Source of the DNA: Rhina ancylostomus
Taxonomy: Eukaryota
NCBI GenBank assembly: GCA_030265395.1
Contig: JARFYF010000007.1
Location: 38,174,694-38,238,693 of the forward strand
Direction of reading: 5' to 3'
DNA: 64,000 nt
The notes below the pieces were generated by a model. The model saw only the letters and a program-made list of their open reading frames with translations. It searched no databases and was not told the origin of the DNA. Made by a program: the position numbers and the translations under genes. This document shows, piece by piece, positions 1,251 through 56,925 of the stretch (its first letter is position 1; each line of letters begins with the position of its first letter).

Positions 1251-1388
1251 CAGTCCTGAAGAAGGCTCCTGACCCAAAACGTTGACCACCTGTTTTTCTC
1301 CACGGATGCTGCCTAGCCTGTTGAGTTCCTCCAGCATCATTGTGTTTTCCATCTAGATTCCAGCATCTGCAGTCCTTTGTTTATCTGG
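1251..1388 (+). repeat. ~130-bp dispersed repeat (Penelope-like pLTR-derived, hammerhead-like core), copy 1
   Basis: cagtcCTGAAGAaggctcctgaccc(A)AAAcgttgac...gatgctgcctagcctgttgagttcctccagcat. Confidence 0.7.
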
Positions 1389-1849
1389 TTTTACCACACT
1401 TGTAGTGTTCTGAGGCTACATGATGAATTGGAGCCTAAAACACTCTTCCTCCCATTTTGTTAGTAGTGCAAAGTACTTGGGCTGTTTTTGTTAAATTCCA
1501 AAGGTACAGAAAACTGAAGTTCTGATTTTACAAATATTAAGTGTCAATGTGATTAAAAGATGGTATACTTAGTGAATTTTCTTGGTTTGTGATAGCATCT
1601 ATTATCTTGGTATGCAATGTCAGAAAAACTTGAGTACTCAACATGTACAATGTGAGCAAAGCCACAGCATGTTTTCTGCTAATCTTGTTGCAAGAGTGGA
1701 GTGGCAATGTCAGAATATTTAACGCCCAGATTGTGTCATTTTCGTCTATTTTGAAATTCTGACTCTGATCCTGATAGAACAAAAATACTATAATTTTTTT
1801 GAGAGAGAGCCTATGATTAATATTTTAACATATTTCTGTTTGTTCCAAG

Positions 1850-1960
1850 GTCTCCTGGTGGGCGCTTTAGATGCTGTGCTTGACTCCAATGCCCGTGTTG
1901 CACCATTCCGCATTTTGCATCAGATGCCAGGATCACAAGTGTACTGGGTCATTGCCTGTG
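1850..1960 (+). CDS. TBC1D8: TBC1D8 exon 2
   Basis: ccaag|GTCTC...GCCTGTG|gtacgt; [36 protein letters not shown]. Confidence 0.93.
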
Positions 1961-4900
1961 GTACGTAAGACCTGTGTAAATCGCTAGCAAATTGTGCGGA
2001 AGGGGTTATGTTACAATATGAATGTTCAAGAGTAGTGTCAATTTAAATAAATATTCTGGAGTTTATTTGGTGAATGCCAGCTCTGAAGTTCTTTAANNNN
2101 NNNNNNNNNNNNNNNNNNNNNNNNNNNNNNNNNNNNNNNNNNNNNNNNNNNNNNNNNNNNNNNNNNNNNNNNNNNNNNNNNNNNNNNNNNNNNNNNAATG
2201 CCAGCTGTGAAGTTCTTTAAAATCTGATACGGTACTGATTCTTTTTCAAGGGATGCCTTTCCTGCTATAATCTCCCAAAATGTGGGAACACCGACTCCAA
2301 CTGATCCCAAACTCCCTTTCAAACTGATGCTTTACCATGAATTCTTTTAGATGTTCCCATTTAACCCAGTGAAAACAGCATCTGTAACATTTTTCTTGAA
2401 ATTTGTGACTTTTTTTGGAATATAAATAAATTGTTGACAGTTGATTTGTACTGGCAATTGCTGTCATTAGGAATGAAAATGTAATGTTGTATTTAGTTGT
2501 AAGAGCAAAGTTATGAATGGGCTGATGTCATCTACCCAATAAAGCAATAATCTTGTAATGGATACCCAAATTTCATTGCTGAGAAATTGCACACTAATTA
2601 GGAAGCTGTTCCCAAGAGAAATAAAGACTTTGAAATTCTGTCTGGCAACTGCTTTTACGAGTCTTTTTCCTTCCTGGGATCCTCTGGGCCAGATGCCAGT
2701 TATCAGCTTTGCTTGATCCAGTGAGAAAATTAACATAAGCATATCTACTCTGATGTAAGAGTATCATTCGTAGAAAGTCTGCATAAAAATATTTTGTGCT
2801 AATTTTCAGTCTCTACATATCCAGACCAGAAGTTGGTGTGAATTTGTTTTTTAAATTTCACTCAATTTTGAAATGTTAAAGGGAAAAAGAGGCTCCTTTT
2901 TAGACTCTCCACTGAACATAAAAGATCAAAATGTAATGTATGCCTTAATTTTTTTTTGCACACAATTCTTTAAAATGAGCCACTGTGTAAGAAATTCATC
3001 AACACTGGGAATGGTTAGAACAAAATCTTCTGCACACTCTTTCCGTATTTGACAATAAAGATGATGTTATCAGCTTTGTTCATGGTAAAGTAAAGGTAAG
3101 AACAATCCAGCAAGTTTGTGAACAATTGCATCATTTGGATAAGCTCTGGGAGGTCAGGGGGAGGAATCAACTACATGTTTCATTGTGCAATATACAAAAT
3201 GTAAAAGACTGCTGATATTGTTCTACAATAACTATTCAAGGCCCTATTTTTAAACCACACAAAGAAGAATAATTTATTCAGTGTAAAGTTGGAAGTAAAA
3301 AAAAAAATCCATTTTTAATGAAAAGCAATTGAAAATCATTCAGATAATTAGCATTGTCACCAGCACCATTTTGGGTAGTATAGGAGAACTATTTTCCCCA
3401 ACATGAGGGGAATGATCAATTGGTTACTAACTCGCTATGTGTAGAAATGTGATAGCCTTGTCTGGATTATTTTTAGTTTAAGTAGGGTCCTCGGGAGCAA
3501 TACAAGATCTTTGTAAAGCACAATGTTATACGTTGCATGGTACCTATCCAAAAGCAGATGAAGGCTATTGTGAAAATGTACTTGCAGGAAAATATTATTG
3601 CAAAATACCACCACTTTGTATGTGAATCATGGAATTAATAAGAATAATGGAGCAGATCTTCTGTTGACCTGAAGTTGTAAATAGCTGGTTCTGGGTCTGC
3701 TCTAGCGTGGGACTGACATGTGTTCCATTGTATGTTTCAGCAGAGTGAAAAGGCTATTTTGGCTCAGGTGGCCAGTTGCATTCAAAGGGTCTCCTTGAGC
3801 TGGTGATGCCTTGCCCCAAGATGGGGGCTGCTGGTGATGAGGCTTGGGTGTTTTAAAAAGTTAATCTTGAAACACAGCACAAAGTATACCAACATGCTAA
3901 AAATCAGTTGAAATAATTAAAAATAACTTGAGTAATAAAAACACAACTACTTGCCTTTCTCCTGGGAGCCAACTTCTTGTTGCAAGCCCAGCAGTCACCA
4001 TTTAAATGAACAAGTTTAACCTGCACACACTTGGGTAGATTTTCAACCTGAGAGCTAAGAAATCTGTGGCAGTCTGCTGCCCTGGTACACTACACACAGA
4101 ACCCATTGGAGCAATGGGGCAGATGGCAGCACATGTAGAAGGTGTTATTGTCAATTATACCAGTATTAGCAATGGAAATCAGGACTTCAGAGTGTACATG
4201 AAGGCAAGCCCACTAATGGTGGGAAACCTGATCCATTTTGTGACTCCTGTTGGACAAAGTTGGCACGTAGTACATTAGCATTACCTCTTGTGATCTGAGG
4301 TTGGCGTTTGCAGCTAAAACATAAGCCTAGAGTTTCCACTTGGGTGTCAGCTTAATTGGATGAAATTAAATTGTGCTTAAAAAGTTATGGAATTGTACCC
4401 ATAGCTATACACAAATTTTCATGATATTTATGTTTTTTTTATATACATAAGTCCATCTATTCCAAACTTGTTCCTGCCCACTTTCCATTCTGGTAATGAA
4501 GAATCCAGTCACTAATTTATTGTGCTGTTTGGTTGCACTGATTTTGGGCAACTTCTCTTAAGCTTTTTATACCCGTAATATTGGGTAGTAATGATGGAAA
4601 TCTCTGCAAAACTGGCAGCATATCCAGCAAATCTTGATTGCATCCCAATCAAAACCCCACAGACTAATTAATTTTGAAGATATAATTGTAATTAATTGTT
4701 AAATGGCATTATTTACCATTGATTTTGTAAGTGTGAAGTATTTTCTGATGTAATTGTTTATTCAATCACTGTCTCATATATAGTGTGCCTAGCTACTGAC
4801 TTGATGTACATGCCAGAGAATTTTAATTATGTGACATTGCAGTATTCAATAACTATAATAAAAACGAAGAAAATTACAGCTGCTGTAAATTTTTTTAAAA

Positions 4901-55235: not shown

Positions 55236-55379
55236 CAAATAATTGACATGGATAAAACGAAGTTTCTGAGTTTTGGAAGAAGAAGAAATGACTAGTTCTG
55301 AACCATTAATAAAGAACAGCCAAGCTAACTCAAACTAAGAAATATTGACTTGAGAGATTATTTGCTACTAGTTGCATAC

Positions 55380-55505
55380 CTTACACCTTTAGCCCAAACA
55401 GCCTTGTTCAAACGAGTATCAATACGGACATCAGGAGTGCCCATTTCCTTCACAGCAAATTTTCGGATTTCCTTAATGGCACGTGGAGCACGTCTCTTAA
55501 AACCA
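55380..55505 (-). CDS. RPL31: RPL31 coding exon 2 (gene exon 3)
   Basis: gaag|T GGT...GTA AG|gtatgc; [41 protein letters not shown]. Confidence 0.96.
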
Positions 55506-56822
55506 CTTCAAAAAAAGTTCCAAATTATTAGTTTGCCAAGTGCAGTGCCCAAATTATTGATATAAAAACAGATTTACACAAATTGCAACCATGGTACCCT
55601 CTAATCCATTCAAATTCTGCTGCCGTTTTTTTTATATGATACATTTTTGAAATAATGACTGTGAATCAAAAAAGGCATTAATTTAGCAGATCACCTATAC
55701 TCAAGATACAAATAAAGGTAGGTCTGTTCCATAGTATGCATAGTAAACAGAGCACAATAATGTCATAGCCCCACAGTCCAAATATTGTGAATGGCAGCAG
55801 GGAAAATTAACTACATTATCAAAAAACTGGTGGGTAAAAAAATGACAAAAAACAGTCATTGCCCACCTCCCCCCACAAACTCTCTCTGGCCAAGTTCCAC
55901 ATCCTATCTAACAAAATGCCCCAGCCTATACACACTTTTGAATAGCTAGTGCCATCCTGCCTAACTTGCAAGCTTTAATTCATCTAGAATTATGCCCCAT
56001 GTCCAACCAAACACTGAATCCCATCCACCCAACTTTCACTAGCCACATCAGCTCTCAGCCTATCAACACCCATTTACAAAATATTGAATCCTCTCATTTA
56101 AATCGGCACAGCTTTGTGGGCCGAAGGGCCTGAATTGTGCTGTAGTTTTTCTATGTTCTAAATAGCCCTCACTACCTCATCCCCCACTGTCCCTCCAATT
56201 CTACACCAATCCAATGCTAGCCTCTAATGCATTTTGCAATTATTTCACTCTACCAGTGATATGCATGCCAAAGTCCCAAGCTCTGGAATTTTCTCAAAAT
56301 CTCTCTACCTCTTTCTTTAAACTTATTGTTTCAGCTGTCCAAATAGTTCATCATTGGTTCTGTATCAATCTAACTCATCTTGCTCTTGTGTGGCTTTGGG
56401 GTATTTTACTACATTGAGAATGTTGTATCAAGACAAAATGTTGTAAACTTTAAGAATGTTCAGACGTTTATTAGACTCATACTTGGTAGAACGTTGTGCT
56501 ACGAGGAAAAGACTGGACTGGCTAGACCAGGATTGGACTACCGGAACTTAGTGTGTGAGGGGACAAAAGAAACATACAAGATCCTGAGGGTTCATGGCAG
56601 GATGAAATTCAAGAGGCTATTTCTTCTTGCCTTGCAAACCTTGAACTAAGTAGGCCTGTTTAGACAGAAGTGGCCATCTACTTGACATGAGCAGAATTTT
56701 TTCCTGACAGCCACAAGTCTTTGCACTTTTTCCTCAAAGGAAACAGAGTCTGATTATTTTCAAGGCAGAGTCGGTTAGAATACATCCAGGCCCCCAGAGA
56801 TCAAAACAAAATCTCTCTTTCC

Positions 56823-56925
56823 CAGTTCTGATGAAGGGTCTTCGACCTGAAGCGTTAACTGTGTTTCTCACTCTACAGACGTTACCCGACCTGTTGAGCC
56901 TTTCTGTGATTATTTTTGCTTTATT
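56823..56925 (+). repeat. Same repeat family, best-preserved hammerhead-like core, in RPL31 intron 2 (antisense to RPL31)
   Basis: CAGTT-CTGATGA-A-GGGTC-ttc-GACCT-GAAG-CGTT-AACTG. Confidence 0.75.

What the first reader, a model, noticed from the sequence alone, without database searches (positions are those of the whole stretch)
1251..56925. Dense intronic family of short repeats carrying a minimal hammerhead-ribozyme core (Penelope-like / retrozyme-type)
Seen: about ten ~130-bp copies (1251+, ~4880-5010, 11501+, 12312-, ~14660+, ~20760+, ~31235-, 36150-, ~42240+, ~47540+, 56823+); the head is clear in about five and decayed or missing in the rest. The approximate consensus is CAGTY-CTGAWGA-A-GGGTC-(loop)-GACCY-GAAA-CGTT-RACTG, followed by gatgctgcctgacctgctgagttcctccagcat. 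This maps onto a type I hammerhead: stem I CAGTY/RACTG, CUGANGA box, an extra A, stem II GGGTC/GACCY, GAAA box and a loop-less palindromic stem III (AACGUU). Minimal, dimer-dependent hammerheads of this form are known from Penelope-like element pLTRs (established). Inference: a very abundant non-autonomous ribozyme-bearing element in this genome, roughly one copy per 6 kb here. Most copies are inactivated by CpG-type changes (GAAA>AAAA, CG>TG/CA). No RT or GIY-YIG ORF is visible in the window.
Basis: partly seen in the sequence, partly recalled or inferred. Interest (0 to 1): 0.7.

Follow-up and report, generated by a model that had tools for sequence, protein, structure and literature searches.

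The report
Decayed Penelope-like ends in ray introns
Short repeats scattered through two genes of a ray look like broken-off ends of a known kind of jumping gene that carries a tiny self-cutting RNA motif; they are very dense here but old, and no copy still has an intact motif.

Summary
There are 11 loci (14 arms), about one per 5.1 kb, all in introns of TBC1D8 or RPL31 of a batoid ray. The reconstructed head fits the published minimal type I hammerhead descriptor of Penelope-like elements (PLEs); chance rate was 1 hit in 2e7 nt. No genomic copy passes it (0 of 8 complete heads; the best, 56823+, is one base off), and covariation does not exceed shuffles.

Three loci are head-to-head inverted pairs, 5 of 11 have 9-14 bp flanking duplications, 5' ends vary, and an optional 3' tail sits on one arm of a pair. 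This is the published anatomy of endonuclease-bearing PLE insertions. So these are best read as dead, 5'-truncated or inverted pseudo-LTR ends.

'Retrozyme-type' is not supported: there are no tandem units and no ends at the cleavage site. No PLE reverse transcriptase or GIY-YIG partner was found, so the clade and whether a separate non-autonomous master exists stay open. This is a new member of a known kind.

The parts
1251..1377 (+). Copy c1 (type A): head 1251-1288 with G12>A, body and tail
4859..5005 (.). Locus c2: headless head-to-head pair (4859-4952 minus, tail-like end; 4953-5005 plus, short end); 14-bp duplication 4845-4858 / 5006-5019 (13 of 14)
   Evidence: (hairpin z -4.1)
11501..11622 (+). 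Copy c3 (type A): starts at helix I; G12>A; tail present
12152..12325 (-). Copy c4 (type A): head begins 12312, U4>A; tail; 13-14 bp duplication 12138-12151 / 12326-12338
14586..14758 (+). Copy c5 (type B): about 76-nt 5' extension, decayed head at 14662, short end; exact 10-bp duplication 14576-14585 / 14759-14768; ends about 40 nt before a TBC1D8 acceptor
   Evidence: (extension shared with P0142)
20754..20878 (+). Copy c6 (type B): first box disrupted, tail present
31133..31279 (-). Copy c7 (type B): heavily decayed; exact 9-bp duplication 31124-31132 / 31280-31288 (weakest of the five)
36030..36261 (.). Locus c8 (type B): head-to-head pair, 36030-36156 minus with head (both boxes intact, but G10.1/G11.1 mismatch and broken helix I) and 36164-36261 plus truncated in helix II
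   Evidence: (hairpin z -8.1)
42114..42336 (.). Locus c9 (type A): best head-to-head pair, 42114-42227 minus (truncated in helix II, with tail) and 42237-42336 plus (decayed head, short end); arms 72 of 80 identical; 13-bp duplication 42101-42113 / 42337-42349 (12 of 13) abutting both ends
   Evidence: (hairpin z -12.3)
47540..47636 (+). Copy c10 (type B), in an RPL31 intron, antisense; possible inverted stub 47505-47525 minus (E 2.1, not established)
56823..56930 (+). Copy c11 (type B): best head, 56823-56861; helices I and II fully paired, single core change A15.1>G; antisense in an RPL31 intron, ending within about 10-35 nt of the donor at 56938
1849..45864 (+). Host gene TBC1D8, 18 coding exon matches (first exon not in the window)
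46086..57045 (-). Host gene RPL31, four coding exons located approximately
   Evidence: (PF01198)

Best explanation
These are the 3' ends (pseudo-LTRs) of at least two related, endonuclease-bearing Penelope-like retroelements, left in introns of a ray as short dead insertions. Shown: shared body, two 3' end points about 25-35 nt apart, variable 5' ends, head-to-head pairs, 9-14 bp flanking duplications, and an ancestral head that fits the minimal hammerhead descriptor. Inferred from published PLE work: a PLE protein nicks AT-rich DNA and starts reverse transcription at one of two internal sites of the RNA (short end or tail). Synthesis stops early, mostly in or just past the structured head, and sometimes a second inverted copy is laid down at the 5' side; staggered cuts give the duplication. 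Because 8 of 14 arms keep both halves of the head, the template was uncleaved RNA. In the parent element the head would fold as a dimer or with protein help. After insertion, CpG deamination hit C11.1/G12 and C15.2/G16.2 and the copies decayed; they are unlikely to cleave host pre-mRNA. Whether the source was a full-length PLE or a short non-autonomous master is not resolved.
For: Descriptor from PMC4209133 Fig S7: type-B majority head passes in 4 of 4 tie variants, all-copy majority in 2 of 4, type A in 0 of 4 as is and 2 of 4 with CpGs restored; chance 1 hit in 2e7 nt. Head has the features the paper lists beyond its descriptor: extra base after A9, G10.1, palindromic 15.2-16.2. Pairing in register 71% of 63 cells against 18-40% for slid controls. 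Helix I closing pair is C-G in 2 of 4 type-A heads (C/A in the other 2) and U-A in 4 of 4 type-B heads. Three head-to-head pairs and another in an unrelated record, P0140. Flanking duplications scoring 9 or more at 5 of 11 loci against 3 of 110 cross-paired flanks, Fisher p 1e-4. Tail match p<0.05 in 6 of 14 arms; at c9 on one arm only. PMC3846280 describes the same set: inverted pLTR, 8-10 bp TSD, 31-bp tail on one inverted pLTR, mostly head-to-head; also PMC8557442. PMC11167929: two internal RT start sites define the tail; unprocessed RNA is the main substrate. PLEs are reported as expanded in whale-shark introns.
Against: No copy passes the descriptor and Rfam finds no hammerhead. Covariation is not above shuffles (308 of 500 reach the score; one pair with a two-sided change). 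Individual heads do not fold better than shuffles (z -0.6 to +1.4), and the MFE dimer is not the active fold, even for the reconstruction (-27.3 against -18.9 kcal/mol). No link to a PLE ORF: none in the window, none among 12 protein hits to the repeat's open frame, none. Six of 11 loci show no duplication, and at c4 and c7 it lies 13-32 nt outside recognisable element. Tail was not significant in c2a (p 0.12) or c8b (p 0.22). The A/B split rests on diagnostic bases; the tree has no supported branch.
Confidence: 0.8

Rival explanations
1. Non-LTR retrozyme: monomers of a tandem repeat that spreads through self-cleaved circular RNA.
For: Type I hammerhead, small size, non-coding. PMC7229834 notes larger-than-4-bp TSDs. 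The 2026 preprint finds retrozymes in its one chondrichthyan, derives them from pLTRs, and reports dispersed monomers, so tandem relatives may exist elsewhere in this genome.
Against: No tandem unit; neighbours are inverted, not direct. Ends do not start or stop at the cleavage site. The head is the minimal PLE form, which PMC7229834 separates from canonical retrozyme heads. Chondrichthyan retrozyme consensus averages 363 bp.
Confidence: 0.07
2. A MITE, fold-back element or SINE whose head resembles a hammerhead by chance.
For: Inverted pairs form long hairpins with flanking duplications; no covariation signal; no protein partner found.
Against: 8 of 11 loci are single arms; pair arms have unequal ends and variable junctions; duplication length varies 9-14 bp; chance descriptor rate about 1e-5 per element; no tRNA; Pol III B-box matches 3 against 4.3 expected, only one touching a copy; no poly(A) or microsatellite tail.
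Confidence: 0.06
3. Some copies are kept as working intronic ribozymes or splicing elements of TBC1D8 or RPL31.
For: c11 keeps both helices although its body is about 55% identical to the others; c5 and c11 lie beside exon boundaries; domesticated intronic hammerheads are known in amniotes (PMC6155905).
Against: c11 is antisense to RPL31 and has A15.1>G; the five sense-strand heads (c1, c3, c5, c6, c9b) all carry core changes; orientation is 5 sense to 5 antisense.
Confidence: 0.04

Closest known systems
Minimal hammerheads (min-HHR) in pLTRs of metazoan PLEs (Cervera and De la Pena 2014, PMC4209133)
   Same: CUGANGA plus extra base, G10.1 helix II, GAAA-C-G-U-H with loop-less helix III, short helix I; mostly dispersed single motifs from truncated PLEs; some opposite-strand pairs.
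   Different: No chondrichthyan row in the text of Table S1 or Fig S3. Here no copy passes the descriptor, density is about one locus per 5 kb, and no ORF link was shown.
Endonuclease-bearing PLE insertions of Adineta vaga and Anolis PAc/Poseidon (PMC3846280, PMC11167929)
   Same: Head-to-head inverted pLTR, about 8-10 bp TSD, optional 30-40 nt tail on one arm, hammerhead near the pLTR end.
   Different: Here both arms are ORF-less stubs of 50-170 nt. In those elements the pLTR holds the first ORF codons; an open ATG frame follows the head here, but no RT-bearing protein with that start was found.
Metazoan non-LTR retrozymes (PMC7229834; bioRxiv 10.64898/2026.07.22.740005)
   Same: Type I hammerhead, non-coding, thought to depend on PLEs.
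   Different: Those are direct tandem repeats, mostly with canonical heads and circular RNA; these are dispersed or inverted, with minimal, decayed heads.

Membership tests
min-HHR (PLE type I) | Published descriptor met by the family consensus | tested here: met
   Type B 4 of 4 tie variants; all copies 2 of 4; type A only with CpGs restored, 2 of 4; chance 1 in 2e7 nt
min-HHR (PLE type I) | Descriptor met by an actual genomic copy | tested here: not met
   0 hits on both strands; 56828+ passes with one mismatch
min-HHR (PLE type I) | Covariation in helices I and II | tested here: inconclusive
   7 heads: 71% paired against 18-40% slid; covariation not above shuffles; one two-sided change (c7 left out for its insertion)
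min-HHR (PLE type I) | Self-cleavage as dimer or with protein | not testable with these tools
   Needs in vitro assay
Penelope-like element (EN+) | RT plus GIY-YIG ORF joined to the repeat | tested here: inconclusive
   None in 385 ORFs of 50 aa or more or in 12 protein hits; absence is expected for truncated ends; rest of genome not available
Penelope-like element (EN+) | 5' truncation with adjacent inverted (head-to-head) copy | tested here: met
   3 of 11 loci; also P0140
Penelope-like element (EN+) | Optional 30-40 nt tail at one end | tested here: met
   6 of 14 arms p<0.05, references drawn from four of them; one arm only at c9; about 25-35 nt
Penelope-like element (EN+) | Variable TSD of about 8-15 bp | tested here: met
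   5 of 11 loci, 9-14 bp, against 3 of 110 controls; empty sites not checked
Penelope-like element (EN+) | Direct partial tandem (pLTR-ORF-pLTR) | tested here: not met
   No direct tandem in the window; expected only at long insertions
Non-LTR retrozyme | Direct tandem repeats each with a complete head | tested here: not met
Non-LTR retrozyme | Circular RNA intermediate | not testable with these tools
   No transcript data
tRNA-derived SINE | Pol III A and B boxes, tRNA-like head, simple-repeat tail | tested here: not met
MITE | Fixed terminal inverted repeats and constant TSD length | tested here: not met
   8 of 11 loci single-armed; TSD 9-14 bp
Rfam hammerhead families | Match at gathering score or E<=10 | tested here: not met

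The most novel reading that the evidence does not exclude
A dedicated ORF-less PLE parasite, made of pLTR ends alone or head-to-head, expanded to several hundred thousand loci (a few per cent of introns) in rays. Its hammerhead overlaps the element's own splice signals: the helix I 3' strand reads like a branch site (TTRAC), followed by a pyrimidine tract and YAG|ATG about 30 nt after G12 (AG kept in 8 of 12 arms, scoring at the 89th-99.9th percentile of background AGs). Cleavage at H17 and splicing would then compete, and the copies would seed cryptic exons and long double-stranded hairpins in host pre-mRNA.
Probability: 0.12. Interest if true: 0.6.

Novelty: new member of a known kind. Interest (0 to 1): 0.3.

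Why it matters
It extends PLE minimal hammerheads to a batoid ray and shows that descriptor scans miss most of them: 0 of 8 heads pass although the ancestor did. If the local density is typical (one window only), the family is a sizeable part of ray introns and offers very many natural insertion footprints (duplication, tail, inverted junction) for the still-open question of how PLEs make head-to-head insertions. As biology it is a known system in a decayed state.

Tried and rejected
Rfam at gathering score and at E<=10: no hammerhead. Exact-pattern scans of bacterial and archaeal genome contigs, 2 of 2 empty; blastn of locus c9 against plasmids and phages empty. Search for longer proteins bearing the c9 read-through frame: 18 candidates, none at E<=0.01. 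Protein atlas, c11 frame: no usable hit. Profile of the ATG frame: 12 hits; 10 map by tblastn onto the repeat loci and look like read-through of the same repeat, 2 (P0137, P0141) are unrelated repetitive proteins; none has RT or GIY-YIG. So 'the ATG starts the PLE ORF' is unsupported. The names and organisms of those hits are unknown because the cluster look-up could not be made. One search used a mis-registered structure and is discarded in favour; anchors, and c8b, were off and were corrected. An exact-word TSD search found nothing clear; the mismatch-tolerant one did; I had seen the c9 duplication by eye before fixing its boundaries. A pyrimidine-tract acceptor at the helix I 5' strand, as in D. 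virilis, was inconsistent (3 of 6 AG-bearing heads below the 40th percentile). The tree of 14 arms was unresolved. Unchecked: Repbase and Dfam, the rest of this genome, metagenome and viral contig collections, and the preprint supplements, whose chondrichthyan retrozyme and PLE tables may already hold this family.
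Full report
Setting. The window is from a batoid ray: the last TBC1D8 exon is 97% identical to Pristis pectinata, 94% to Mobula, 78-83% to sharks and 68% to Callorhinchus. 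TBC1D8 runs 1849-45864 on the plus strand and RPL31 about 46086-57045 on the minus strand. CpG observed/expected is 0.33.

Observation. An iterated profile found all 11 sites. With each locus withheld, 13 of 14 arms came back at E 3.5e-6 or better, one at 0.043, and the reversed window gave nothing. That is one locus per 5.1 kb, all intronic, 5 heads sense and 5 antisense to the host transcript. Arms are 43-79% identical in a global alignment. Diagnostic bases suggest two types: A (c1, c3, c4, c9; 65-79% identical to each other) and an older, looser B; the tree does not resolve them.

The head. I coded the descriptor printed in PMC4209133 Fig S7. It finds nothing in the window; with one mismatch in the second box it finds only 56828+, where helices I and II are fully paired and A15.1 is G. 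The other seven complete heads carry core or helix breaks. Majority heads do pass: type B in 4 of 4 tie variants, all copies in 2 of 4, type A in 2 of 4 only when the two CpGs are restored. The chance rate was 1 hit in 2e7 nt of simulated sequence. The head also has what the paper found beyond its descriptor: an extra base after A9, G10.1, and a palindromic 15.2-16.2. Pairing is in register (71% against 18-40% slid), but covariation is not above shuffles; the only two-sided change is the helix I closing pair, C-G in type A and U-A in type B. Decay is concentrated at the two core CpGs, with the caveat that no type-B arm has C at 11.1. Rfam has no matching model hit. Conclusion: the ancestor carried a minimal hammerhead; the copies here almost certainly do not cleave. 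That A15.1 and G12 are essential is partly recalled; G12 as general base is stated in PMC6155905.

Three loci are 5'-to-5' inverted pairs that fold as long hairpins (z -12.3, -8.1, -4.1). Five of 11 loci have 9-14 bp flanking direct repeats, against 3 of 110 cross-paired flanks; at c9 and c2 they abut the element. Copies end at one of two points about 25-35 nt apart; the longer end is significant in 6 of 14 arms and at c9 is on one arm only. 5' ends range from about 76 nt before the head (c5) to after it (c2). Independent records agree: P0140 reads through another head-to-head pair and P0142 shares the c5 5' extension. PMC3846280 describes this combination for rotifer Penelope, PMC8557442 generalises it, and PMC11167929 explains the tail by two internal RT start sites and finds uncleaved RNA to be the main template, with cleavage only when protein is present.

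What was not found. No GIY-YIG or PLE-type RT among 385 ORFs (shorter or frameshifted remnants could be missed). The RT fragments present have GVPQG or YVDD motifs, which I read as LINE-type from recalled knowledge. Protein searches with the repeat's open frame gave no RT-bearing protein. So membership of PLEs rests on the head and the insertion anatomy, not on a sequenced parent; clade and autonomy are open.

Mechanism. Shown: structure of the insertions and decay pattern. Inferred: PLE endonuclease nicking, internal RT start, early termination near the head, occasional inverted second copy, staggered repair, then neutral decay. Speculative: stalling at the folded head explains why many 5' ends cluster there; a branch-site-like TTRAC in helix I followed by a pyrimidine tract and YAG|ATG (model from 18 approximate host acceptors) may be the element's own intron end.

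Comparison and novelty. It works like, and most likely is, a PLE pseudo-LTR with a min-HHR. It fails the retrozyme test of direct tandem units. Penelope is reported in whale shark, and one chondrichthyan has retrozymes. Nine literature searches showed no paper describing this family's hammerhead in rays; the library lacks most subscription papers and repeat databases could not be searched, so it may already be catalogued. I recall a similar abundant repeat in shark and ray genomes; that is recall, not a result.

Papers seen. PMC4209133: main text parts 1-2 of 4 and the supplementary PDF text (figures garbled). PMC11167929: parts 1-2 of 4. bioRxiv 10.64898/2026.07.22.740005: parts 1-3 of 5, supplements not seen. 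Passages only: PMC8557442, PMC3846280, PMC7229834, PMC8969392, PMC6155905, PMC8455134, 10.1101/443036.

Verdict. Observation confirmed; interpretation partly supported; new member of a known kind; interest 0.3.

Noticed in passing
window 57938-64000: After a gap beside the RPL31 start, the scaffold holds rDNA of two kinds: two 18S 3' ends only 91% (87 nt) and 80% (80 nt) alike. The 58-61.5 kb unit has very short spacers (about 142 and 203 nt). Probably a foreign animal's rDNA or a mis-join in a gappy assembly.
   Followed up: partly
window 10515-10910-, 15246-15458+, 21072-21548+, 48337-48825-, 54204-54449+: Decayed LINE-type reverse-transcriptase fragments (Pfam RVT_1 in four; 21072 had no hit and resembles Rex/Babar by recall). 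The 48.9 and 53.9 kb pieces are inverted relatives. One begins just after copy c6.
   Followed up: partly
window 43414-43640+ and about 35760-36000+: tRNA-derived SINE-like copies: A box at 43414 and B box at 43460; the second lies next to locus c8 and shares a similar core.
   Followed up: no
window 14759-14801 and 56904-56938: Two old type-B copies sit right beside splice sites: c5 just before a TBC1D8 acceptor, c11 just inside an RPL31 donor.
   Followed up: partly
window 54858-54944: A separate self-complementary stretch (84% over 90 nt), unrelated to the family.
   Followed up: no
window 37991-38206 and 54009-54212: Near-identical 52-58 nt direct repeats either side of 100-N gaps: assembly overlap artefacts.
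   Followed up: no
window 9696-10249 and 42493-43014: Another dispersed repeat of about 550 nt, matching at both ends at 85-87%; the second copy starts about 150 nt after locus c9.
   Followed up: no
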